Made by a program: the position numbers and the translations under genes. Under the pieces are notes generated by a model. It was not told the DNA's origin. It did not search any database and worked only from the letters and a program-made list of their open reading frames with translations. Source: Felixounavirus NRG857CP1. From it: a stretch of 64,000 bases of DNA. The stretch lies in sequence record OZ035806.1. The stretch is one strand, 5' to 3'. Of the stretch, positions 1,639 through 63,985 are shown piece by piece (position 1 is the stretch's first letter; each line of letters starts with the position of its first letter).

Positions 1639-3114
1639 GTGAGAAGAATGGCAGATATTACAGAAACACAAGAAAGCTTACCACCATTTAGAATGGGTGA
1701 AGTAGGTTCTTTGGGTCTGAAGGTTAAGAATGGAAGAATCTATGAAGAACCTCGTCAGGCACTAAGGTTCCCTGAAAGTATTAAAACTTTCCAATTAATG
1801 ATGCGTGACCCTGCTGTAGCAGCATCTGTAAATATTATTAAGATGTTTGTCAGAAAAGTCAACTGGAGATTCGTACCTCCAAAGGGAAAAGAGCAAGACC
1901 CTAAAATGCTTGAAAGAGCAGACTTCTTTAATTCTTTAATGGATGACATGGAGCATGATTGGGCAGATTTTATTAATTCTGTAATGTCATTCTGCACTTA
2001 TGGGTTCTGTGTTAACGAGAAAGTTTATAAGAAGCGTCAGGGTAAAAAAGGAAAGTATCAGTCTAAATTTGATGATGGTCTAATTGGATGGGCTAAATTA
2101 CCAATTAGAAACCAATCAACACTTGATAAGTGGTATTTTGACGAAGACTTTAGAAAAGTTACTGGTGTTAGGCAGAATCTGAGAAATGTTTCACATATTG
2201 CTGGAGCAATTAATCTCGGAGAAAGACCACTAACAAGAAAACTTCCACGAGCTAAATTCATGCTGTTTAAGTATGACGATGAATATGGAAACCCAGAAGG
2301 TCGCTCACCATTACTTAATGCTTATGTACCGTGGAAGTATAAAGTTCAGATTGAAGAGTACGAAGCTGTTGGTGTCTCAAGAGATTTAGTAGGTATGCCA
2401 AAGATTGGTTTACCACCAGATTATCTGGATGAAAATGCAGAACCTGAAAAGAAAGCTTTCGTACAATACTGCAAAACTGTTGTTAACGATATGATTGCTA
2501 ATGATAGAGCGGGTTTAATCTGGCCTAGATATATCGACCCAGAAACTAAAGAGGATATTTTCGAGTTCTCATTAGTTTCTAGACAGGGTGCTAAAGCATA
2601 CGATACAGGTTCTATTATTGACAGATATTCCAAGCAGATTATGATGGCATTTATGTCAGATGTTCTTGCTATGGGTCAGTCAAAATACGGTTCATTCTCT
2701 CTTGCAGATTCTAAGACAAGCTTACTAGCGATGTCAGTAGATATTCTGCTTAAGCAAATTAAGAACGTAATTAACCGTGACTTAGTTGCACAGACTTATG
2801 CTCTTAATATGTGGGATGATGAAGAACATGTACAAATCACATATGATGATATCGAAACTCCAGACCTTGAAGCAATTGGTTCTTATATTCAGAAGACTGT
2901 TGCAGTAGGTGCTTTGGAAGTTGACAAAGAGCTATCTAACAAGCTTAGAGAGCATATTGGTCTTCCTCCTGCTGATGAATCTCAGCCAGTATCTGAAAAG
3001 CTTTCTCCAAATAGTCAAAGCCGCTCAGGAGATGGTTATAAGACCGCTGGAGAAGGTACTGCAAAGACACCTTCAGCGAAAGACCCAAGCACAGCAAATA
3101 AGGCAAATAAATAA
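1639..3114 (+). CDS. portal protein (putative)
   Basis: 491 aa ORF directly downstream of terL, acidic/Ser-rich C-terminus; assignment by size and conserved gene order. Confidence 0.6.
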   Translation: MRRMADITETQESLPPFRMGEVGSLGLKVKNGRIYEEPRQALRFPESIKTFQLMMRDPAVAASVNIIKMFVRKVNWRFVPPKGKEQDPKMLERADFFNSLMDDMEHDWADFINSVMSFCTYGFCVNEKVYKKRQGKKGKYQSKFDDGLIGWAKLPIRNQSTLDKWYFDEDFRKVTGVRQNLRNVSHIAGAINLGERPLTRKLPRAKFMLFKYDDEYGNPEGRSPLLNAYVPWKYKVQIEEYEAVGVSRDLVGMPKIGLPPDYLDENAEPEKKAFVQYCKTVVNDMIANDRAGLIWPRYIDPETKEDIFEFSLVSRQGAKAYDTGSIIDRYSKQIMMAFMSDVLAMGQSKYGSFSLADSKTSLLAMSVDILLKQIKNVINRDLVAQTYALNMWDDEEHVQITYDDIETPDLEAIGSYIQKTVAVGALEVDKELSNKLREHIGLPPADESQPVSEKLSPNSQSRSGDGYKTAGEGTAKTPSAKDPSTANKANK

Positions 3115-3614
3115 TGGCTGAAGTTATCTCTATTTCAAATGCTACACGAGTGCATTCGTATAGAGGTGTTCTTATTATCACTGACAAATTATCTGTAGGG
3201 GCTGGCTCAAGGGTCAGCCTTTCAGGTTATGTAAGTGATGGTGGAACCTCTGACGTTTTCACTATTTGCAGGTTACTTGATGCACCAATGAGTGGAAAAC
3301 CGTTTATTTCAGGAAATTGTAGTGAAATTGTTAAAATTCCATTTGACAGTTCATGCCTTTTGGGTGTAAAGTTATATAACTGCGAGAATAAACGTATCAA
3401 TGTTAATAGCATTGAAGCCGCTTTCATTACCCTCGACACTGCATTTCAATCTCCAATGACAGTTAATAAAGAAACAAACAGACTTGAATACATTTTTTCA
3501 CAAAATGATTACAAAGTACTTGTCAAAGGCAAAGTATATGATATGATTGTAAATGTGGTAGATGAATCTGGTAACCATTCAACAGTCCTTAAACAAAAAG
3601 TAAGGTTTAATTAA
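3114..3614 (+). CDS. hypothetical protein (head module)
   Basis: 166 aa ORF, start overlaps portal stop (ATGA-type coupling). Confidence 0.35.
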   Translation: MAEVISISNATRVHSYRGVLIITDKLSVGAGSRVSLSGYVSDGGTSDVFTICRLLDAPMSGKPFISGNCSEIVKIPFDSSCLLGVKLYNCENKRINVNSIEAAFITLDTAFQSPMTVNKETNRLEYIFSQNDYKVLVKGKVYDMIVNVVDESGNHSTVLKQKVRFN

Positions 3615-3946
3615 TGGGAACATTAACTATTGATGGTAAGAATAAAATCCTCGCCACGCTAACCCCAACGACTATTATTTTACACAATGTAGACCCAACG
3701 GCAGACCCTACAGCAAATAAGGTTACTCAGCCAGTGGCTATTTATTTTTCTGAACCGGATAATGGCTTAATTGCCTCAGAAGACACAGTTAATATCACTG
3801 TTCCAGCTTCTGCAACGGTCTCACACTATAGCTTGTGGGATGCTAACGATAAATGCGTGGCAACTGGTGCTCTTAGCAAACCTCAATTCTTTGCTGAAGA
3901 AGGTATCTATGTTATCTCTTCAGTCTCTGTAGATTTAAACAAATAG
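3614..3946 (+). CDS. hypothetical protein (head module)
   Basis: 110 aa ORF translationally coupled to upstream ORF. Confidence 0.35.
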   Translation: MGTLTIDGKNKILATLTPTTIILHNVDPTADPTANKVTQPVAIYFSEPDNGLIASEDTVNITVPASATVSHYSLWDANDKCVATGALSKPQFFAEEGIYVISSVSVDLNK

Positions 3947-47001: not shown

Positions 47002-49146
47002 ATGAACAAAGTACAGATTATTAAAAAGAATGGCTCACTTGAAGAACCTGATATCAAAAAAGTTTTAGCAGCAGTCACAAAATCAGCTAACAGAGTTGGT
47101 TATAAAGAGCTTCCACCAGATGTTACTCAAGCTCTTGAGTCAGCATTTATGAGGATTCTGGTAAAGTCCACTAAGCAGAATAATTTGCTAATTTCGGTAA
47201 ATGATATTCACAGTATTGTTGAGGGTGCTTTGGCAGAAGTCAATCACGAGATTTATGAGTCTTACTCAACATATAGAAATTACCGTAAAGAAGTTGCTCA
47301 AAATTGGGATGAACTCTACCAGAAGACTAAAGATACACTCTTCTTAGGTGACCGTGAAAATGCTAACTTTGACAGTAGTTTAATTTCTACAAAAGGTTCA
47401 ATTATTCGTGGTTATCTGACTAAAGAAATCTTTAAACAGTACCATTTAACACCAGAGGAACTGGAAGCCATTGAAAAAGGATTTATCTATATCCATGATT
47501 TAAGAGACCTGATTTTTGGTGGTATCAACTGTTGCCTGTTTGACATTGGTAAAGTCCTGAAAGGTGGCTTTGAAATGTCTGGCATCGAATATTGTGAACC
47601 AAAGTCTGTGCTGTCGGCCTTACAGGTTATTGGTGACGTAGTTCTTTCAGCAACTGCACAACAATTTGGTGGCTTTACTTTAGCAGAGATTGATAAGGTA
47701 CTTGTACCGTATGCTAAGAAGTCTCTACGCTATCATGCTGAGAAAGCAGCATCTTATGGTATTCCTAAAGAACATTACCACAATTATGTCATGGAGCAGC
47801 TACAGATTGAACTGACTCAAGGTTTCCAGTCACTTGAAATGAAACTAAACACTGTACCTTGTAGCCGTGGGGATTTTGCATTCACAACTTTGACATTCGG
47901 GTTACTTGACTCAGATATGTCCAATGAAGATAACCGACTGCAATATATGATTGCAAGTACCCTCCTAGATGTTCGTATGAATGGTCAAGGTAAGAGCAAG
48001 AAACCTGTTGTATTCCCTAAACTGGTTTATATTTATGACCAGAAGAGACATGATGAAAATATCTGTCAAAGTCACCTGTACAGTAAAGCTATTGAGTGTT
48101 GCTCTAAAGCAATGTATCCAGACTTCTTAAGTGTATCTGGTCATGGTGCTGTAGCAGAGGCTTTTGAGCGTTCTGGCAAGGTTATTTCGCCGATGGGTTG
48201 CCGAGCGTTCTTATCTCCGTATCTTAACGAGAATGGGGAAGAGTTCTACGTTGGTCGTGCTAACATTGGTGCTGTATCTTTGAACTTACCAATGATTTAC
48301 CAGTATTCTAAAGAGAATGGTTTAGATTTCTGGAAAGAGCTTGATAAGTACCTAGAGATGATTCGTAGTTTCCACAAGAAACGTTACGAAATGATTGCTA
48401 ATATGCCAGCAAGTTCTAACCCTCTTGCATTTACACAAGGTGGTCTGTACAAAGGAACTAAGAAGCCTACTGACAAGGTTGGTTGGGATATTGTGAAGTC
48501 CTTCACAGCTTCTTTTGGTGTTACTGCGCTTGATGAGCTATCTGTTCTTGCTGAAGGTAAACGACTTCATGAAGTTGGAAGCTGTAGTTTTGCATACGAT
48601 GTTCTGGCATACATCAACATGAAAACTGAAGAGTTTAAAAATGAAGATGGCTTCTTATATGCCGTCTATGGTACTCCAGCAGAATCACTTTGCGGAACTC
48701 AGTTAAAACAGTTCAGAGATATGTTTGGCGTTATCAAAGGTGTTTCTGATAAGGAATACTTTACAAACAGTTTCCATATGAATGTTGCAGCAGACATCTC
48801 ACCATTTAAGAAGCAGGACTTAGAAGAGCCATTCTTCCATATCTGTAGAGGTGGTAGAATCCAGTATGTCAGGGTAGCTAATCCAGAAAACTTAACAGCA
48901 CTTAAAAGTTGTATTACCAGAGGGATGTTGAAAGGTTTCTATCAGGGGCTTAACTTTGACTTAGCAATCTGTGAACATTGTGGTAACAGACCAAAGGCTG
49001 ATGTTGAAGAATGTGAGGTTTGTCATTCACACGATATCTCTGTGATTAACAGGGTGTGCGGGTACTTGTCATTCACAAAAATTAAAGGTCAGTCTCGAAT
49101 GAATGACGCTAAGATGGCAGAAATTAAGGATAGGGTTTCTATGTAG
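47002..49146 (+). CDS. nrdD: anaerobic ribonucleoside-triphosphate reductase, class III
   Basis: 714 aa; C-terminal zinc ribbon CEHCGN...CEVC and glycyl-radical motif RVCGYL. Confidence 0.9.
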   Translation: MNKVQIIKKNGSLEEPDIKKVLAAVTKSANRVGYKELPPDVTQALESAFMRILVKSTKQNNLLISVNDIHSIVEGALAEVNHEIYESYSTYRNYRKEVAQNWDELYQKTKDTLFLGDRENANFDSSLISTKGSIIRGYLTKEIFKQYHLTPEELEAIEKGFIYIHDLRDLIFGGINCCLFDIGKVLKGGFEMSGIEYCEPKSVLSALQVIGDVVLSATAQQFGGFTLAEIDKVLVPYAKKSLRYHAEKAASYGIPKEHYHNYVMEQLQIELTQGFQSLEMKLNTVPCSRGDFAFTTLTFGLLDSDMSNEDNRLQYMIASTLLDVRMNGQGKSKKPVVFPKLVYIYDQKRHDENICQSHLYSKAIECCSKAMYPDFLSVSGHGAVAEAFERSGKVISPMGCRAFLSPYLNENGEEFYVGRANIGAVSLNLPMIYQYSKENGLDFWKELDKYLEMIRSFHKKRYEMIANMPASSNPLAFTQGGLYKGTKKPTDKVGWDIVKSFTASFGVTALDELSVLAEGKRLHEVGSCSFAYDVLAYINMKTEEFKNEDGFLYAVYGTPAESLCGTQLKQFRDMFGVIKGVSDKEYFTNSFHMNVAADISPFKKQDLEEPFFHICRGGRIQYVRVANPENLTALKSCITRGMLKGFYQGLNFDLAICEHCGNRPKADVEECEVCHSHDISVINRVCGYLSFTKIKGQSRMNDAKMAEIKDRVSM

Positions 49147-49153
49147 AATACAA

Positions 49154-49717
49154 ATGAATTACGAACTAATATATAATGCAATTATTAAAAAGGCACATTC
49201 TGAAAGGGGTGTGCCTCTCACATACTACAAATGTCAAGGTAAGGGTTATGAAAGACACCATATCATACCAGTATGTCTAGGTGGCGATAAAATTAGTGGA
49301 GATAACATTGCTTTACTTACACCTAGAGAGCATTATATAGCTCATAAATTACTGGTTAAGATGTATCCAAACAATCATAAGTTATGGTTTGCATGGAGCA
49401 GGTTAGCTCATGATGGCCTAGATAGGAAAATATCATCCAGAGACTATGAAAAGGTAAGGGCTTTAAACTCGAAAGCTCTATCGATTGTGAATAAAGGTAG
49501 GGTTTTCACTGAAGAGCATCGAAGACGATTAGGAGAAGCTCAAATAGGTAATACAAAGTCAAAAGGTTGTAAAAGGTCTATGGAAACAAGGAAGAAGATG
49601 TCAGAAGCCGGAAAAAAGCCAAAGAAAAAGAAAACTTGCCCGCATTGTGGCATGACTGGTGGTGCTGGTAACATGACTCGATATCATTTTGACAATTGTA
49701 AGAAAAAAAAAAAATAA
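49154..49717 (+). CDS. HNH homing endonuclease with NUMOD-like repeats
   Basis: ERHHIIPVCLGGDKISGDNIALLTPREHYIAH HNH core; two NUMOD-like units (FTEEHRRRLGEAQIG, SMETRKKMSEAG); Lys-rich C-terminus; start at ATG 49154 just after nrdD stop. Confidence 0.7.
   Translation: MNYELIYNAIIKKAHSERGVPLTYYKCQGKGYERHHIIPVCLGGDKISGDNIALLTPREHYIAHKLLVKMYPNNHKLWFAWSRLAHDGLDRKISSRDYEKVRALNSKALSIVNKGRVFTEEHRRRLGEAQIGNTKSKGCKRSMETRKKMSEAGKKPKKKKTCPHCGMTGGAGNMTRYHFDNCKKKKK
49703..49716 (+). repeat. homopolymeric A tract at 3' end of HNH gene
   Basis: About 13 consecutive A encoding the terminal lysines. Confidence 0.8.
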
Positions 49718-50779: not shown

Positions 50780-51265
50780 ATGAATTACATGGAGATTAGG
50801 CCATTTGACACAGCTAATGGTGAAGGGGTTCGTGTAAGCCTCTTCGTAGCTGGTTGTAAGCATCACTGCGAAGGCTGCTTTAACAGGGAGTCTTGGAAGT
50901 TTAATGCTGGTAAAGAGTTTACTTATGCAAACCTCTACGGTATCATTAAGTTAATGGATGATGAGGCCATCAGTGGGTTGTCAATACTCGGTGGAGAGCC
51001 TCTGGATGATAGAAATATTCAAGAGGTTACCAACATATGCAAGCGTATTAAAACTGTTTATCCAGAAAAGTCTATATGGCTTTGGACAGGTTTTCAGTTA
51101 CATGAAAAAATTCACCTTGATGTGATGAAATATGTTGACGTGGTGATTGATGGTAAGTATGATTCATCTAAACCAACAGTTAAACCGTATCGTGGTTCAG
51201 ATAACCAAAACCTCTGGAGAAAAGAGTACGGATGGCAAGGTGATTGTCAGTGGAGAGCAGAGTGA
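50780..51265 (+). CDS. nrdG: anaerobic RNR activating protein (radical SAM)
   Basis: CxxxCxxC radical-SAM cluster motif CKHHCEGCFN; 161 aa. Confidence 0.8.
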   Translation: MNYMEIRPFDTANGEGVRVSLFVAGCKHHCEGCFNRESWKFNAGKEFTYANLYGIIKLMDDEAISGLSILGGEPLDDRNIQEVTNICKRIKTVYPEKSIWLWTGFQLHEKIHLDVMKYVDVVIDGKYDSSKPTVKPYRGSDNQNLWRKEYGWQGDCQWRAE

Positions 51266-52517: not shown

Positions 52518-52788
52518 AGAAAAGTGGGAGATTTTACCATTAGTCAGTGAAGGTGGTAATGGTTGTGAGATGTACATGATACGTGGTCATGTCCCAGAGC
52601 CAATTGCACTTGAGATGGTAAACAACTTTACAGATGGTTCTTACAAAGACTTAGGCGAACCAACTGTCAAGCAACAATGGGTTAAACCTGTACCAGACAG
52701 CACAGGTAACTGTAGTGTACTTTATCACGTTGTAGACCCTGCAAAATGCAAATCTGCAATGGCAGTAACAAACGTAACTTTTGATTGA
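52510..52788 (+). CDS. hypothetical protein
   Basis: 92 aa ORF. Confidence 0.3.
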   Translation: MAKEKWEILPLVSEGGNGCEMYMIRGHVPEPIALEMVNNFTDGSYKDLGEPTVKQQWVKPVPDSTGNCSVLYHVVDPAKCKSAMAVTNVTFD

Positions 52789-52799
52789 GAGAGAAAACT

Positions 52800-53681
52800 A
52801 TGAAAACATCTATCCGTGTTACAGTTCATTCACCAACTAAAGGGACTCATGAAGAAGAGTTTAACATCATCCAATTTCCTTCTGGTGAGATTGGTGGACA
52901 CTTTTCGCCAGAGTTTGTTGATTTCACTGCTTATGCAGCATCATCCATCAACAATGTGATTATGATTGTAAAAGGTTATGATAAGGACACATTGTTTGCT
53001 GTGGCACTTGCTAAAGAAGCAATTGATGATTTAATTCCTCATGATTATGCTTTAAAGACTGTCATCTTTTACTACTTACCAAATGCACGATATGACCGTC
53101 ACATGTTTAAAGGCGACGCAGCAGCTTTAAAGGTTTTTGCTAAACAGGTAAATGCAATGGGATTTGGTGCAGTCTGTGCAGTTGACCCTCACAGTTACGT
53201 TCCAGATAACCTGTTTAACTGCTTCCAGAGTATTCCTCAAAAGGAGATTGCAGTCCACTATGCAAATGACCCACTGGTTGATTACTTAGTAGCCCCAGAT
53301 GCAGGTGCTGCTAAGAAGGTTGCAGAGACAGCTAAAGAGGTGGATAAACCATATATCACAATGTCTAAGGTGCGTAACCTTAAGACTGGTGAAATTACTG
53401 GTATGCGAATCCTTGATGATGTTGATTTGACAGATAAAACCGTCATGATTCTGGATGATATCTGTGATGGTGGTCGAACCTTCATAGAAGCAGCTAGACA
53501 TCTTCGTGAAGCAGGTGCAAAACGTGTGGAACTCTATGTAACACATGGTATCTTCTCTAAAGATGTTGAAAACCTTCTTGACAATGGCATTGACCACATC
53601 TACACTACAAACTCTTTAGGGGAAGCTAAAGACCGTGGCTTAACACATTATGGTCAAGTTACTGTAGCAAACCTTGATTAA
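52800..53681 (+). CDS. PRPP synthetase (ribose-phosphate pyrophosphokinase) family protein; candidate ADP-ribose pyrophosphokinase of a phage NAD+ reconstitution pathway
   Basis: Aligns by eye with Prs: YLPNARYDR (cf. YFGYARQDR), LVAPDAGAAKKV, PRPP-loop VMILDDICDGGRTF, THGIFS; start at ATG 52800 (ORF open to 52785). Confidence 0.75.
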   Translation: MKTSIRVTVHSPTKGTHEEEFNIIQFPSGEIGGHFSPEFVDFTAYAASSINNVIMIVKGYDKDTLFAVALAKEAIDDLIPHDYALKTVIFYYLPNARYDRHMFKGDAAALKVFAKQVNAMGFGAVCAVDPHSYVPDNLFNCFQSIPQKEIAVHYANDPLVDYLVAPDAGAAKKVAETAKEVDKPYITMSKVRNLKTGEITGMRILDDVDLTDKTVMILDDICDGGRTFIEAARHLREAGAKRVELYVTHGIFSKDVENLLDNGIDHIYTTNSLGEAKDRGLTHYGQVTVANLD

Positions 53682-53726: not shown

Positions 53727-55508
53727 ATGACTAAATCACTTTATGCAGTACCAGCAGGTTTAAACGCAGATGCTTACAAATCTGGTCACATTTACCAGTA
53801 TCCTAGTGCAACAGAATACTTGATGTTCAACCTGACACCACGTAGTGATAAATGGTTTAACAGCCCTTTAGCAATTGACGGTGTAGTGGCTTTTGGTATT
53901 CAACGTTTTGTTAAAGATTACTTGATAGACCACTGGAATGCCACTTTCTTTGAACGTGATAAAAAAGAAGCCATTGATGAAATCTTAGAAGTCATGAATG
54001 GTGTTCTGGGTAAAGATGCTATCGGTCGAGAGCATTGGGAAGCACTTCACGACTTAGGTTATCTACCAGTTGAAGTATACGCTGTAGAAGAAGGCACAGT
54101 TGTTCCAATGCGTGTCCCGATGATTGTCTTTCAGAACACTGTTTCAGGTTTTCATTGGGTAGCAGGTTATCTGGAAGATGCTTTCTCTGCTGAAATTTGG
54201 AAGGCTTGCACCATTGCAACTATTGCATTGCATTACAAACGCATCTGTAAGAAGTGGGCTGAACTTACTTGTGACAATGACTTACATTTACCTTATCAGT
54301 GCCATGATTTTGCTATGCGTGGTATGTCCGGCTTTACTGATGACGCATTTAACGCTGTAGGCCACTTAACCAGCTTTAAAGGAACTGATAGCTTCCCTGC
54401 TGTGTATACGGCTAAACGAATCTATGGACAGCCTTACCCAATCTCTGATATTGGTAGCTCTGTACCAGCCACTGAGCACTCTGTAATGTGTGCAAACATT
54501 GCTTGGGAAGGTGGTAATGAGTTGATTGAAGAAGAAAGACGCTTTAAAGGTGAGTTACAAACCTTCCGTCGCTTCTTAACAGAAACTTACCCAACTGGTA
54601 TTGCAAGTGTTGTTTCAGACACTTATAACTTCTGGAGAACTGTGTCAGAAATTTTACCAGCACTTCGTAAAGAAATTATGGAACGTGATGGCAAACTGGT
54701 AATTCGTCCTGACTCTGGAGACCCTGTACATATTGTCACAGGTTATAAAGCAATCCACTTAGAATGTGCTAAGAAGGCTTATTATGAACATCTTAGCAAG
54801 CTGGAAGCTAGTGATACAATGCTAAGCTCTGTCCTGAACATGAAGCTTGAAAACATCAACTATGGTATTGCTGGATGGCTACTGTCAGAAGGCTACGAAA
54901 TGGTTGTTGACAGAGAAGACTTTGAAGTTGCTGATACAGTGATGTTGAAAAATGCTTATATGGTTGGTTCTGCAAACGTTGTAACACGTCCTATAGCTGA
55001 GATTGATGGAGCTATTAAGACTCTGTATAACATCTTTGGAGGAACTATTAACTCTAAAGGTTTTAAGGTACTTGATGAGCACATTGGCCTTATCTATGGC
55101 GACTCTATCACGTTGGAACGTGCAAACGAAATCCTGAAGCGTCTGTATGAAATGGGTTTTGCAAGCTCTAACGTAGTTTTTGGTGTAGGTTCTTACACTT
55201 ATCAGTACATGACTCGTGACACCTTTGCATTTGCTGTTAAAGCAACTCTTGCAAGCATCGGTGGTAAAGAGATTATGCTTGCAAAAGACCCTAAAACAGA
55301 TAGTGGTGTTAAGAAATCTGCCTTTGGTGGTGTAGCACCTATGTGGGATGGTGATAAGCTGAAAGCTGTAGATGGCTACGGATTCCAGAGTTTTGCAGAT
55401 GTACTTGACCACCCAGCTTGTGCTTTACGTTTAGTCTTTAGTGACTCTGAGCAGTTTGGTTACACAACTCTTGGTGATATTCGAAATAATATTGACAAGC
55501 AGCTTTAA
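53727..55508 (+). CDS. nicotinamide phosphoribosyltransferase (Nampt) family protein; candidate nicotinamide ADP-ribose transferase
   Basis: Nampt-family blocks: DAYKSGHIYQYP, CHDFAMRGMSGF...FKGTDSFPAV, SVPATEHSVM, SVVSDTYNFW, VIRPDSGDPVHIV, GLIYGDSI; 593 aa, longer than typical Nampt. Confidence 0.8.
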   Translation: MTKSLYAVPAGLNADAYKSGHIYQYPSATEYLMFNLTPRSDKWFNSPLAIDGVVAFGIQRFVKDYLIDHWNATFFERDKKEAIDEILEVMNGVLGKDAIGREHWEALHDLGYLPVEVYAVEEGTVVPMRVPMIVFQNTVSGFHWVAGYLEDAFSAEIWKACTIATIALHYKRICKKWAELTCDNDLHLPYQCHDFAMRGMSGFTDDAFNAVGHLTSFKGTDSFPAVYTAKRIYGQPYPISDIGSSVPATEHSVMCANIAWEGGNELIEEERRFKGELQTFRRFLTETYPTGIASVVSDTYNFWRTVSEILPALRKEIMERDGKLVIRPDSGDPVHIVTGYKAIHLECAKKAYYEHLSKLEASDTMLSSVLNMKLENINYGIAGWLLSEGYEMVVDREDFEVADTVMLKNAYMVGSANVVTRPIAEIDGAIKTLYNIFGGTINSKGFKVLDEHIGLIYGDSITLERANEILKRLYEMGFASSNVVFGVGSYTYQYMTRDTFAFAVKATLASIGGKEIMLAKDPKTDSGVKKSAFGGVAPMWDGDKLKAVDGYGFQSFADVLDHPACALRLVFSDSEQFGYTTLGDIRNNIDKQL

Positions 55509-61447: not shown

Positions 61448-61470
61448 AGGCTCCTTCGGGAGCCTTTTTC
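61448..61470 (+). terminator. intrinsic terminator
   Basis: stem aggctcc / ggagcct with ttcg loop, then ttttt. Confidence 0.6.
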
Positions 61471-62594: not shown

Positions 62595-62796
62595 AAAGAC
62601 ACGAAAACTTATAAGGTCAGCAGTATTCATTGGACGAAATGAGGTCATCCCATTTACAGCAAATGATGTGATAGCTTACAGGAAGAACTTAGTATTCACT
62701 GACTGCTTACGTGGCTTCATCTCTGAACCATTGGAAGACTTTAAAAGTCGTTGTGGTAAAGGTATCATCATTCAAGAGGCAATTATTCATGGCTGA
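62569..62796 (+). CDS. hypothetical protein
   Basis: 75 aa ORF. Confidence 0.25.
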   Translation: MKVILARDKKTRKLIRSAVFIGRNEVIPFTANDVIAYRKNLVFTDCLRGFISEPLEDFKSRCGKGIIIQEAIIHG

Positions 62797-62989
62797 CTTC
62801 TGTAAAGACTGTTCTATCGAAATGTTCGGACGTGATACAGGTGACTTAAAAGGTCTTATCACTGAAGATGATTTTAAAGCTGGTTATGCAATGCCAGTAA
62901 TCTGTGAAGGTTGTGGGTGCATCTGGGTAGACCATGAGGGGCAACGTGTAAAACCTTCAGAAGATAAAGAATCTTGGGAGAGATGCTAA
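62789..62989 (+). CDS. zinc-ribbon protein
   Basis: CKDC...CEGCGC cysteine pairs; start at ATG 62789 (ORF open to 62711). Confidence 0.35.
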   Translation: MADFCKDCSIEMFGRDTGDLKGLITEDDFKAGYAMPVICEGCGCIWVDHEGQRVKPSEDKESWERC

Positions 62990-63775
62990 ATGGGTATTGT
63001 AAAAATCATCAATGGTGATATCTTTGCTGCATTTGATAAAGGTAAGTTTGACATCATTGGTCATGGTTGTAACTGCATGAACCTAATGGGCGCAGGTATC
63101 GCTGACAAGATTTCTAAACTTTACCCAAAAGCATATGAGACCGATACAGAAGTTTATCTCTATGCAGGTGGTATAGGTCACAAACCCTGTGAGAATTTAC
63201 TAGGTAATTTCTCTGTAGCACGCTTAAAACAAGGTCGTATAGCTAACCTTTACACTCAGCTTAAGACTGGTAAAGATGCCCGATACAGTGCTTTAGAGTC
63301 ATCTTTGAAACAGCTTAACAGATACTGTGAAGTCAATCAGTTGAAGAAAGTTGGTTTACCTATGATTGGTGTAGGTATCGGTGGACTTGACCCTCAAGCC
63401 GTCACAGTTATCATCAATCAGGTGATGAAGAGTGTAGATGTTTATCTATATGTCTATGAAGGAGAGATGTACCACAAGTTACTCTCAGGTTGGAAGAACT
63501 ACTGTGAACCAGAATACTTTGCAGGTGTAGCAGTGTTCACAGATAACGCAGTTACCCTCTTCAGACGAAGAAAAGGTAAGATACATCAAAGTAACCCTCC
63601 GGTTGAAAAGATGTCTCTAAGTAACGCTCTAGTTACCCACCTGTCAAAGAGCAATCACAGAATTGCTGTAACATTTGGTAGTGATGCAGAAGCTTATATC
63701 TATGCAAGAACTGATGAGGATATTGAGGCAATCTTCTCTTCACCAGAAGTTACCTTCTTAGACGCAAAGAACTAA
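62990..63775 (+). CDS. macrodomain-like (ADP-ribose binding/processing) protein
   Basis: N-terminus IINGDIFAAFDKGKFDIIGHGCNCMNLMGAGIADKI matches the macrodomain pattern GDIT...D-x-IVNAAN...GGGV by eye. Confidence 0.45.
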   Translation: MGIVKIINGDIFAAFDKGKFDIIGHGCNCMNLMGAGIADKISKLYPKAYETDTEVYLYAGGIGHKPCENLLGNFSVARLKQGRIANLYTQLKTGKDARYSALESSLKQLNRYCEVNQLKKVGLPMIGVGIGGLDPQAVTVIINQVMKSVDVYLYVYEGEMYHKLLSGWKNYCEPEYFAGVAVFTDNAVTLFRRRKGKIHQSNPPVEKMSLSNALVTHLSKSNHRIAVTFGSDAEAYIYARTDEDIEAIFSSPEVTFLDAKN

Positions 63776-63839
63776 GAAACTCTGTAGGATATCCACAATA
63801 GCCTAAGCCTTTCTTATCTGGTAAATTTTTCAGGTAAGG

Positions 63840-63985
63840 AGGGCTTTTTCATTTCAGATTTGTGCAGGTAGATTTCTCTACAGAACTCTATAGAGAAAAT
63901 TTTGAACTCCAAAGAGAAAATTCATTTTCAAACTGTGCAGGTAATCTCCAAAGAGCTTTTTCATTTTCAAAACGTGCAGACCCCG
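63840..63985 (+). repeat. three copies of a ~23-bp motif (ttcattt-caaa-tgtgcagg) in terminal non-coding region
   Basis: ttcatttcagatttgtgcaggta (about 63848), ttcattttcaaactgtgcaggta (63921), ttcattttcaaaacgtgcagacc (63957); related tttgtgcag element at about 59690 upstream of a TATAAT. Confidence 0.6.

What the first reader, a model, noticed from the sequence alone, without database searches (positions are those of the whole stretch)
62990..63775. Macrodomain-like protein near the NAD+ module
The N-terminus (GDIF...FDIIGHGCNC...MGAGIA) fits the ADP-ribose-binding macrodomain signature by eye. Macrodomains bind or hydrolyse ADP-ribose derivatives and reverse ADP-ribosylation (established). 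In a phage that may also rebuild NAD+ from ADP-ribose, it could counter ADP-ribosylating defence toxins or process ADPR-derived signals. The C-terminal half (~130 aa) has no recognisable motif.
Basis: partly seen in the sequence, partly recalled or inferred. Interest (0 to 1): 0.55.

Follow-up and report, generated by a model that had tools for sequence, protein, structure and literature searches.

The report
Phage macrodomain with orphan C-terminal domain
This Felix O1-type phage gene encodes a genuine ADP-ribose-removing macrodomain, a relative of the phage T4 protein that defeats the bacterial DarTG2 DNA-ADP-ribosylating defence, fused to a fast-evolving 100-residue domain found only in this phage group and of unknown function.

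Summary
The window is Felixounavirus NRG857CP1, and the gene is the orthologue of FelixO1 ORF13. Residues 1-159 are a bona fide macrodomain: Pfam Macro is above its cut-off, and an AF2 model matches TARG1 and DarG. It belongs to PHROG 335, the same family as T4 Tk.4 (34% identity, E 1e-23). Tk.4 was named AdfM in 2025, when its knock-out made T4 sensitive to DarTG2. The catalytic lysine of DarG, TARG1 and PhiKZ AdfM is replaced by an invariant Gln90. The same replacement occurs in Streptomyces SCO6735, a proven hydrolase of thymidine-linked ADP-ribose on DNA whose Gln85 is essential. Residues 160-261 form a separate beta-rich domain with no sequence or fold relative outside about 255 Ounavirinae genomes. 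Its dN/dS is about ten times that of the macrodomain, and Kolesnikvirus carries a non-homologous tail in its place. Best reading: an anti-DarT2-type DNA de-ADP-ribosylase carrying an accessory module of unknown role. The gene is already annotated in GenBank ("phosphatase", "macro domain protein"). What is new is the Gln-type assignment and the orphan C-terminal domain. Interest is moderate.

The parts
62990..63775 (+). Complete ORF, 261 aa plus stop. It is the orthologue of FelixO1 ORF13 (NP_944801, annotated 'phosphatase; 17.5 kD protein in tk-vs intergenic region').
   Evidence: The window is 100% identical to Felixounavirus NRG857CP1 (OZ035796.1), and the ORF is 95-99% identical to FelixO1.
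62976..62982 (+). Shine-Dalgarno-like GGGAGAG, 7 nt before the ATG. The upstream ORF's TAA (62987-62989) directly abuts the ATG, which suggests translational coupling.
   Evidence: Read directly from the sequence.
62990..63466 (+). Macrodomain (aa 1-159) of the ALC1-like class (TARG1, DarG, SCO6735, Poa1p, BT1257). It belongs to PHROG 335, the same family as T4 Tk.4/AdfM.
   Evidence: dN/dS is 0.01-0.04 among close relatives.
63062..63076 (+). HGCNC motif (aa 25-29). Asn28 aligns with DarG N22, PhiKZ AdfM N23 and SCO6735 N27. His25 aligns with SCO6735 H24.
   Evidence: Alignments. The mutational importance of the equivalent residues is reported.
63086..63103 (+). MGAGIA glycine-rich loop (aa 33-38), the phosphate-binding loop 1 of macrodomains.
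   Evidence: M33, G34 and G36 are invariant across the family and the reference enzymes.
63245..63259 (+). NLYTQ motif (aa 86-90). The invariant Gln90 occupies the position of the catalytic Lys of TARG1 (K84), DarG (K80) and PhiKZ AdfM (K78), and of the essential Gln85 of SCO6735.
63359..63385 (+). PMIGVGIGG (aa 124-132), the second glycine-rich diphosphate-binding loop. Gly131 sits where TARG1 has its catalytic Asp125.
63467..63772 (+). C-terminal domain (aa 160-261). It is predicted as a short helix, about six beta-strands and a C-terminal helix. It is an orphan in both sequence and fold and is restricted to Felixounavirus, Suspvirus and Mooglevirus.
63805..63856 (+). Terminator-like hairpin plus T-run, 30 nt after the stop codon. 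The gene is the last in a co-oriented block that begins after the terminator-like hairpin at 61448-61465.
   Evidence: This is a consensus scan only.
62789..62989 (+). Upstream 66-aa ORF with CxxC...CxxC, abutting the macro gene. It is conserved next to it in FelixO1, CL1 and finno. It is context only, and its function is unknown.
   Evidence: It has no Pfam hit.

Best explanation
The gene encodes a two-domain phage protein made early in infection. Its N-terminal macrodomain binds the ADP-ribose moiety and hydrolyses ADP-ribose from a nucleic-acid base. The most likely substrate is the thymidine-linked ADP-ribose that DarT2-type toxins place on single-stranded phage DNA. Removing it would restore replication and release free ADP-ribose, making this the Felix O1-group counterpart of T4 Tk.4/AdfM. 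Catalysis is probably of the SCO6735 type: Gln90, held in place by Asn28, positions the distal ribose, and a backbone-held water does the chemistry. There is no lysine nucleophile as in DarG or TARG1. The C-terminal domain (aa 160-261) is a separate folded module under weaker constraint. I infer that it adds targeting or partner binding, for example to DNA, the replisome or the toxin itself. That would be functionally analogous to the DarT-binding domain of DarG2, although the two are not homologous. Shown here: the ORF, the macro fold, the class, the family relationship to T4 Tk.4, the Gln-for-Lys active site, and the distribution and selection pattern of the two domains. Inferred: the enzymatic activity, the substrate, the anti-DarTG2 role, and any role of the C-terminal domain.
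For: Macro fold and class. Same PHROG (335) as T4-type Tk.4, at E 1e-112 for this protein and 2e-71 for Tk.4. Direct BLASTP to T4 Tk.4 gives 34% identity over aa 3-157, E 1e-23, with shared HGCNC, MGxG, NLYTQ and PxIGxG motifs. The original FelixO1 annotation already names the T4 tk-vs protein. T4 tk.4 was the single significant hit of a transposon screen on a DarTG2 host, and a clean knock-out sensitised T4 to DarTG2 (bioRxiv 10.1101/2025.11.20.689424). PADLOC DarG at E 1e-12 and NCBIfam DarG at E 6e-12 match the macro part. Gln90 aligns with SCO6735 Gln85 and Asn28 with Asn27. In SCO6735, Q85A abolishes and N27S almost abolishes hydrolysis of DarT-made dT-ADPr DNA, and the enzyme protects against DarT toxicity (PMC9411070). 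The macrodomain is under very strong purifying selection (omega 0.01-0.04) and is conserved in about 255 Ounavirinae genomes. tblastn at E <= 1e-5 found a similar macrodomain in 2,779 phage records in all. The C-terminal domain is coding and folded (omega < 1; pLDDT 76).
Against: No experiment exists on this protein or on any Ounavirinae homologue. The T4 evidence is genetic only, from a preprint, and T4 Tk.4 has no C-terminal domain. Identity to T4 Tk.4 is only 34%, and ALC1-like macrodomains vary in substrate: TARG1 and SCO6735 also act on proteins, and Poa1p on Appr1p. The biochemically proven phage AdfM (PhiKZ gp104) is a Lys-type enzyme only 23% identical to this protein. The protein scores far below the DarG equivalog cut-off (45 against 250 bits). 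The C-terminal domain shows no similarity to the DarG C-terminal domain or to anything else. Its higher omega could simply mean relaxed constraint.
Confidence: 0.5

Rival explanations
1. The protein is a broader or different de-ADP-ribosylase. It would remove ADP-ribose from proteins or RNA modified by other host ADP-ribosyltransferase toxins or defence systems, or by phage-encoded enzymes, rather than from DarT2-modified DNA.
For: The best single-sequence PDB hit is TARG1, a protein Glu/Asp-ADPr hydrolase (E 1.3e-5; Foldseek rank 1). SCO6735 also removes ADPr from auto-modified PARP1. Macrodomains that reverse RNA ADP-ribosylation are being described (titles).
Against: The TARG1 catalytic dyad is absent: K84 is replaced by Gln90 and D125 by Gly131. 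The only phenotype known for a family member is DarTG2-specific. From my own knowledge, T4 carries Tk.4 yet is restricted by the mRNA-ADP-ribosylating CmdTAC system. No ART gene was seen near this gene in the window, but I did not search the whole genome.
Confidence: 0.2
2. The protein is a small-molecule enzyme, as the database names suggest: an ADP-ribose-1''-phosphate phosphatase (Poa1p-like) or an O-acetyl-ADP-ribose deacetylase (YmdB/MacroD-like) acting in nucleotide metabolism.
For: GenBank and PHROG names include 'phosphatase', 'A1pp phosphatase motif', 'O-acetyl-ADP-ribose deacetylase' and 'ymdB'. The family profile hits yeast Poa1p at E 5e-15, and the HxCNC motif is shared with Poa1p.
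Against: These names are transferred by homology and were never tested. The protein is not MacroD/YmdB-type: the PDB profile hits at E <= 0.001 were ALC1-like members (DarG, TARG1, Poa1p, BT1257, SCO6735) plus two unclassified macro entries (7omu, 2dx6), with no YmdB or MacroD structure among them. No tRNA-splicing or Tpt1 source of Appr1p is evident in this phage. The T4 homologue has a defence-specific phenotype.
Confidence: 0.1
3. The protein binds or degrades ADPR-derived immune signals (gcADPR or His-ADPR of Thoeris), or scavenges ADP-ribose to feed the phage's NARP1 NAD+ reconstitution enzymes. The C-terminal domain would assist in this.
For: Macrodomains bind His-ADPR in type II Thoeris ThsA. 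The phage genus carries NARP1, which uses free ADPR. The roughly 255 genomes with the full-length gene and the 258 with the Prs-like/Nampt-like pair are drawn from the same phage groups.
Against: There is no operon link: the two loci are 7.5 kb apart with other genes and a terminator-like hairpin between them. T4-like phages have Tk.4 at a different locus with no NAD+ genes beside it; I did not check whether they carry NARP1 elsewhere. No known Thoeris counter-measure is a macrodomain of this class in the papers I searched. Co-occurrence follows from shared ancestry within one subfamily.
Confidence: 0.08

Closest known systems
T4 Tk.4 = AdfM (anti-DarT factor macrodomain), T-even phages (HIDEN-SEQ preprint, 10.1101/2025.11.20.689424)
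   Same: Both belong to PHROG 335. Identity is 34% over the whole macrodomain (E 1e-23). They share the invariant motifs HGCNC, MGxG, NLYTQ (Gln at the catalytic position) and PxIGxG. Both are genes of virulent myoviruses of enterobacteria.
   Different: T4 Tk.4 is a single-domain protein of 155 aa. This protein carries an extra domain of about 102 aa. It sits in a different genomic context: after the spanin genes in Ounavirinae, against between vs and tk in T4. Anti-DarTG2 activity is shown (genetically) only for T4.
Streptomyces coelicolor SCO6735 (PDB 5E3B) and Bacteroides BT1257 (2AFC): Gln-type ALC1-like macrodomains
   Same: All have Gln at the position of the catalytic Lys (Q90 = Gln85), a conserved Asn (N28 = N27) and His (H25 = H24), and the motif pattern HxCN...AN(L/M)xxQ...PxIGxG. 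SCO6735 cleaves DarT-made thymidine-ADPr on DNA.
   Different: Pairwise identity is only 24-25%. These are bacterial, single-domain proteins. SCO6735 has a longer 'mobile loop' with Lys89 that is absent here.
Chimallivirus AdfM (PhiKZ gp104; Cell Rep 2026, PMC13309987) and the bacterial DarG2 antitoxin macrodomain (PDB 5M3E, 5M3I)
   Same: They share the macro class, the conserved Asn (N23/N22 = N28) and the glycine loops. They have a proven or inferred role in removing DarT2 ADP-ribose from DNA.
   Different: Those proteins use the FPTK catalytic lysine (K78/K80), whereas this one has Gln. Identity to gp104 is 23% (E 4e-4). DarG2 also has a DarT-binding C-terminal domain and an adjacent darT gene. 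The C-terminal domain here is unrelated to it.
Human TARG1/OARD1 (PDB 4J5R/4J5S)
   Same: It is the best single-sequence and Foldseek match. From the literature, TARG1 can also remove DarT-type thymidine ADPr from DNA (PMC8501950, title and abstract).
   Different: The TARG1 Lys84/Asp125 dyad is replaced here by Gln90/Gly131.

Membership tests
Macro domain (Pfam PF01661) | The score is above the Pfam gathering threshold. | tested here: met
   30.5 bits against a cut-off of 22, covering aa 25-141 and profile positions 2-117 of 118.
Macro domain (Pfam PF01661) | A three-layer alpha/beta/alpha macro fold. | tested here: met
   The AF2 model (pLDDT 72) matches TARG1, DarG and viral macrodomains by Foldseek at E 6e-9 to 3e-7, with TM 0.65-0.80 normalised to the target.
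Macro domain (Pfam PF01661) | Binding of ADP-ribose. | not testable with these tools
   Only the ligand-site motifs are seen: Asn28 and the glycine loops at aa 33-38 and 127-132.
ALC1-like macrodomain class (TARG1, DarG, SCO6735, Poa1p, BT1257) | The closest solved relatives belong to this class rather than to the MacroD, PARG or macroH2A types. | tested here: met
   A family profile hits MtbDarG, TARG1, Poa1p, BT1257, SCO6735 and TaqDarG at E 1e-16 to 3e-14. The next hits are at 3e-6 or weaker.
Phage AdfM of the T4 Tk.4 type (PHROG 335) | Sequence homology to T4 Tk.4 over the full macrodomain, with the shared family motifs. | tested here: met
   BLASTP gives 34% identity and E 1e-23. Both proteins fall in PHROG 335. 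The invariant NLYTQ, HGCNC and PxIGxG motifs are shared.
Phage AdfM of the T4 Tk.4 type (PHROG 335) | Protects the phage from DarTG2. | not testable with these tools
   This has been shown only for T4 tk.4. I found no paper on Ounavirinae.
Phage AdfM of the T4 Tk.4 type (PHROG 335) | A single-domain architecture of about 155-160 aa. | tested here: not met
   The protein is 261 aa with an additional folded domain at aa 160-261.
SCO6735-type (Gln-type) dT-ADPr DNA hydrolases | Gln at the position of the TARG1/DarG catalytic Lys, supported by a conserved Asn. | tested here: met
   Q90 aligns with Gln85 and N28 with Asn27 in MAFFT and in HMM alignments. The roles of these residues are described in PMC9411070.
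SCO6735-type (Gln-type) dT-ADPr DNA hydrolases | Hydrolysis of thymidine-linked ADP-ribose on ssDNA. | not testable with these tools
   This needs a biochemical assay.
DarG2 antitoxin (NCBIfam NF048014 equivalog; PADLOC DarG) | The score is above the equivalog cut-off over the full length. | tested here: not met
   45.4 bits against a cut-off of 250. Only profile positions 4-150 of 338 are matched. PADLOC DarG matches positions 18-145 of 329.
DarG2 antitoxin (NCBIfam NF048014 equivalog; PADLOC DarG) | A catalytic lysine in an FPTK motif (TaqDarG K80). | tested here: not met
   That position holds Gln90 in an NLYTQ motif.
DarG2 antitoxin (NCBIfam NF048014 equivalog; PADLOC DarG) | A C-terminal DarT-binding domain and an adjacent darT toxin gene. 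| tested here: not met
MacroD/YmdB O-acetyl-ADP-ribose deacetylase (as annotated in some GenBank records) | The closest relatives are of MacroD type. | tested here: not met
   No YmdB or MacroD structure appears among the significant PDB hits. The annotation is seen.

The most novel reading that the evidence does not exclude
The Ounavirinae protein is a two-in-one counter-defence factor. Its Gln-type macrodomain erases DarT2 (or related) nucleic-acid ADP-ribosylation. Its fast-evolving orphan C-terminal domain is a new fold that independently binds and blocks the toxin or another host immune protein, or docks the eraser onto replicating phage DNA. This would be a convergent re-invention of the DarG2 'eraser plus toxin-binder' architecture. 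The C-terminal module would be exchanged between phage lineages (Felix type, the divergent finno type, and the non-homologous Kolesnikvirus type) to track host variation.
Probability: 0.15. Interest if true: 0.7.

Novelty: new variant of a known kind. Interest (0 to 1): 0.4.

Why it matters
Felix O1-like phages are widely used in Salmonella and E. coli typing, biocontrol and therapy. Knowing that they carry a likely anti-DarTG2 eraser helps to predict host range on strains that carry DarTG.

The analysis also shows that the name 'AdfM' covers two mechanistically different macrodomain types. The Lys type includes PhiKZ gp104 and DarG. The Gln type includes T4 Tk.4, this protein and SCO6735. tblastn at E <= 1e-5 found a macrodomain like this one in 2,779 phage records; I confirmed the Gln motif only in the sampled members.

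The orphan C-terminal domain is a compact, testable candidate for a new targeting or inhibitor module. It is lineage-restricted, it evolves about ten times faster in dN/dS than the enzyme it is fused to, and Kolesnikvirus carries a non-homologous tail in its place.

Tried and rejected

3. Occurrence of the C-terminal domain elsewhere or as a stand-alone protein. An exhaustive phmmer search of 1.84e9 representatives and a profile search of 5.8e9 proteins found only this family and truncated fragments of it.

4. Homology between the Felix-type C-terminus and the Kolesnikvirus M7 or Agtrevirus tails. hhalign probability was 0.3%, and no tail has a Pfam hit.

5. Internal translation start at the conserved Met160, which would make a separate C-terminal protein. 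The GGAGAG that precedes it in this phage is not conserved in CL1, SUSP2 or finno, and its spacing is too short. Not supported.

6. An operon link with the NAD+ genes. Rejected on gene order and the intervening terminator-like hairpin.

7. Presence of an NMN adenylyltransferase (NARP2) in the region 45-56 kb. None was found.

8. Literature on the Ounavirinae macro protein. None was found.

Full report
**Observation**

The window is 100% identical to Felixounavirus NRG857CP1 (OZ035796.1). An ATG-initiated ORF of 261 aa occupies exactly 62990-63775 on the + strand. A GGGAGAG ribosome-binding-like site lies 7 nt upstream. The ATG directly abuts the TAA stop of a 66-aa CxxC...CxxC ORF. A terminator-like hairpin follows 30 nt downstream, at 63805-63846.

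**The N-terminal part is a macrodomain**

- Pfam Macro (PF01661) is matched above its gathering score: 30.5 against 22 bits, aa 25-141.
- phmmer against PDB sequences gives TARG1/OARD1 at E 1e-5 and DarG at about 1e-3.
- A profile of eight family members hits MtbDarG, TARG1, Poa1p, BT1257, SCO6735 and TaqDarG at E 1e-16 to 3e-14. All of these belong to the ALC1-like macrodomain class.
- An AlphaFold2 model (pLDDT 72) matches TARG1 and T. aquaticus DarG first in Foldseek, at E 6e-9 and 1e-8 with TM 0.73-0.80.
- The domain extends to about aa 159. The unassigned tail is therefore about 102 aa, not about 130.

**Family placement**

The protein falls in PHROG 335 ('phosphatase') at E 3.6e-112. The same PHROG holds the T4-type Tk.4 protein, an Agtrevirus 'Tk.4 protein' and a Kolesnikvirus protein.

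The T4 record shows tk.4 (NP_049723, 'phosphatase; A1pp motif') between vs and tk. BLASTP of our protein against it gives 34% identity over aa 3-157, E 1e-23. The original FelixO1 annotation of the orthologue (ORF13) already reads 'hypothetical 17.5 kD protein in tk-vs intergenic region'.

By tblastn at E <= 1e-5, 2,779 phage records contain a similar macrodomain. Only 256 of them cover at least 80% of the full-length protein.

**What is known about relatives**

- A 2025 preprint (HIDEN-SEQ, 10.1101/2025.11.20.689424) found tk.4 as the single T4 gene depleted on a DarTG2 host. A clean knock-out sensitised T4 to DarTG2, and the authors named the gene adfM. Enzymatic removal of ADP-ribose from DNA was inferred, not shown.
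- Independently, chimallivirus PhiKZ gp104, also called AdfM, was shown in vitro to remove DarT2-made ADP-ribose from DNA, and this activity depends on N23 (PMC13309987).
- I found no paper on the Ounavirinae protein.

**Active site**

MAFFT and HMM alignments consistently place the family's invariant NLYTQ motif on FPTK of DarG and PhiKZ gp104 and on LITK of TARG1. Gln90 therefore replaces the catalytic lysine (DarG K80, TARG1 K84, gp104 K78), and Gly131 replaces TARG1 Asp125.

The same Gln occurs in BT1257 and in Streptomyces SCO6735 (sequence recovered, aligned). For SCO6735, PMC9411070 reports four relevant results:
- Gln85 is equivalent to those lysines.
- Q85A and Q85E abolish activity, and N27S almost abolishes it.
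- The enzyme efficiently cleaves DarT-made thymidine-ADP-ribose on DNA.
- It protects against DarT toxicity.

Our Asn28 and His25 align with SCO6735 Asn27 and His24. All sampled PHROG 335 members, T4 Tk.4 included, are thus Gln-type enzymes. This group is distinct from the Lys-type PhiKZ AdfM, which is only 23% identical to our protein (E 4e-4). The protein is not a DarG orthologue: it scores 45 bits against the 250-bit equivalog cut-off, and only the macro part matches.

**C-terminal domain (aa 160-261)**

- Modelled alone, it reaches pLDDT 76 and pTM 0.71. The prediction is about six beta-strands followed by a helix.
- Foldseek against BFVD finds only the SUSP2 family member.
- There are no Pfam, PADLOC or NCBIfam hits.
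- phmmer against 1.84 billion representatives finds two proteins, both from this family.
- A profile search of 5.8 billion proteins adds only a truncated fragment.
- tblastn finds it in 255 phage records, which the rows I inspected place in Felixounavirus, Suspvirus and Mooglevirus.

The domain diverges faster than the macrodomain. Percent identity to our protein, by domain:

| Relative | Macrodomain | C-terminal domain |
|---|---|---|
| FelixO1 | 98.7 | 95.1 |
| SUSP-type (P0002) | 81 | 57 |
| Moogle-type (P0003) | 78 | 50 |
| finno allele (a Felixounavirus) | 52 | 28 |

Pairwise Nei-Gojobori dN/dS among close Felixounaviruses is 0.01-0.04 for the macrodomain and 0.17-0.45 for the tail. The tail is therefore translated and constrained, but roughly ten times less so than the enzyme.

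Kolesnikvirus M7 has the macrodomain at the syntenic position after the spanins, with a tail of about 108 aa. That tail shows no detectable homology to ours (hhalign probability 0.3%). The same holds for the shorter Agtrevirus tail. The tail therefore behaves as an exchangeable accessory module.

A conserved Met160 at the domain boundary raised the idea of an internal start. The preceding SD-like sequence is not conserved, so I do not support this idea.

**Context**

The gene closes a co-oriented block: spanins, four small ORFs, then the macro gene. The block is bounded by terminator-like hairpins at 61448-61465 and 63805-63846.

The 'NAD+ module' is a Prs-like gene (52785-53681) plus a Nampt-like gene (53727-55508), 7.5-10 kb upstream beyond rIIA and rIIB. 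This two-gene architecture is the one in which the NARP1 pathway was discovered. NARP1 uses Adps and Namat to rebuild NAD+ from ADPR and nicotinamide, and it was found in the Felixounavirus Bas63. The pair is conserved in 258 phage records.

I found no evidence of a functional or transcriptional link to the macro gene. T4-like phages have Tk.4 at a different locus with no NAD+ genes beside it. A conceptual link does exist: DarT consumes NAD+, and the eraser releases ADPR, which is a NARP1 substrate. This remains speculation.

**Conclusion**

The most likely function (confidence about 0.5) is reversal of DarT2-type ADP-ribosylation of phage DNA by a Gln-type, SCO6735-like macrodomain. That would make the protein the Ounavirinae counterpart of T4 Tk.4/AdfM. 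Its lineage-specific C-terminal domain is of unknown role and may supply targeting or partner binding.

The rivals cannot be excluded without experiments:
- other ADP-ribosylated substrates (0.2);
- small-molecule Appr1p or OAADPr chemistry, as the database names suggest (0.1);
- handling of ADPR signals or salvage of ADPR (0.08).

The gene has long been annotated, and its family now has a characterised member. It is therefore a new variant of a known kind, of moderate interest. The orphan C-terminal module is the part most worth an experiment.

Noticed in passing
window 52785-53681 and 53727-55508 (+): An adjacent Prs-like gene (Pribosyltran/Pribosyl_synth) and Nampt-like gene (NAPRTase/NAMPT_N). 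This is the architecture of the NARP1 NAD+ reconstitution operon (Adps + Namat) discovered in the Felixounavirus Bas63. GenBank relatives still annotate the pair as ribose-phosphate pyrophosphokinase and nicotinamide phosphoribosyltransferase. In some relatives an HNH homing endonuclease is inserted within or beside the pair.
   Followed up: partly
window 63840-63979 (+), downstream of the macro gene: Three direct copies of a 28-34-nt unit (…TTTTCATTT(T)CA-N-TGTGCAG(G)…), plus a 12-nt inverted repeat at 63873-63898. They lie in the gap of about 500 bp that precedes a run of small early genes, each separated by about 90 bp in relatives. They may be repeated promoter or regulatory elements.
   Followed up: no
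window 62789-62989 (+): A 66-aa ORF with CxxC...CxxC (zinc-ribbon-like) whose stop codon abuts the macro gene's ATG. It keeps this position in FelixO1, CL1 and finno. It has no Pfam hit.
   Followed up: partly
L005 (Escherichia phage finno) 1985-2764; also VpaE1_ev035: Within the genus Felixounavirus, a second and very divergent allele of the whole gene occupies the same locus. It is 41% identical overall, 52% in the macrodomain and 28% in the tail. This suggests allelic replacement at an accessory-gene hot spot.
   Followed up: partly
L004 (Erwinia phage vEam_W_25, Kolesnikvirus) 2998-3780; L003 (Agtrevirus) 1489-2088: The same PHROG 335 macrodomain carries different, mutually non-homologous C-terminal extensions in other phage genera: about 108 aa in Kolesnikvirus and about 45 acidic aa in Agtrevirus. 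The T4-type protein has none.
   Followed up: partly
window 63467-63469 (Met160): A methionine at the domain boundary is conserved in all Felix, Susp, Moogle and finno alleles. In this phage it is preceded by GAAGGAGAG. The SD-like sequence is not conserved in other alleles and its spacing is very short, so an internal start is unlikely.
   Followed up: yes
window 49103-49717 (+): A 204-aa ORF with a NUMOD3 motif and weak similarity to the colicin/pyocin DNase domain. It is probably an HNH-type homing endonuclease. It sits between the anaerobic ribonucleotide reductase gene (47002-49146) and its radical-SAM activase gene (50780-51265).
   Followed up: no
phage database hits MG065664.1 (Campylobacter phage A132) and one Staphylococcus-labelled record: Records labelled as Campylobacter or Staphylococcus phages carry Felixounavirus sequence about 91% identical to this gene. 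They are probably mislabelled or contaminated entries.
   Followed up: no
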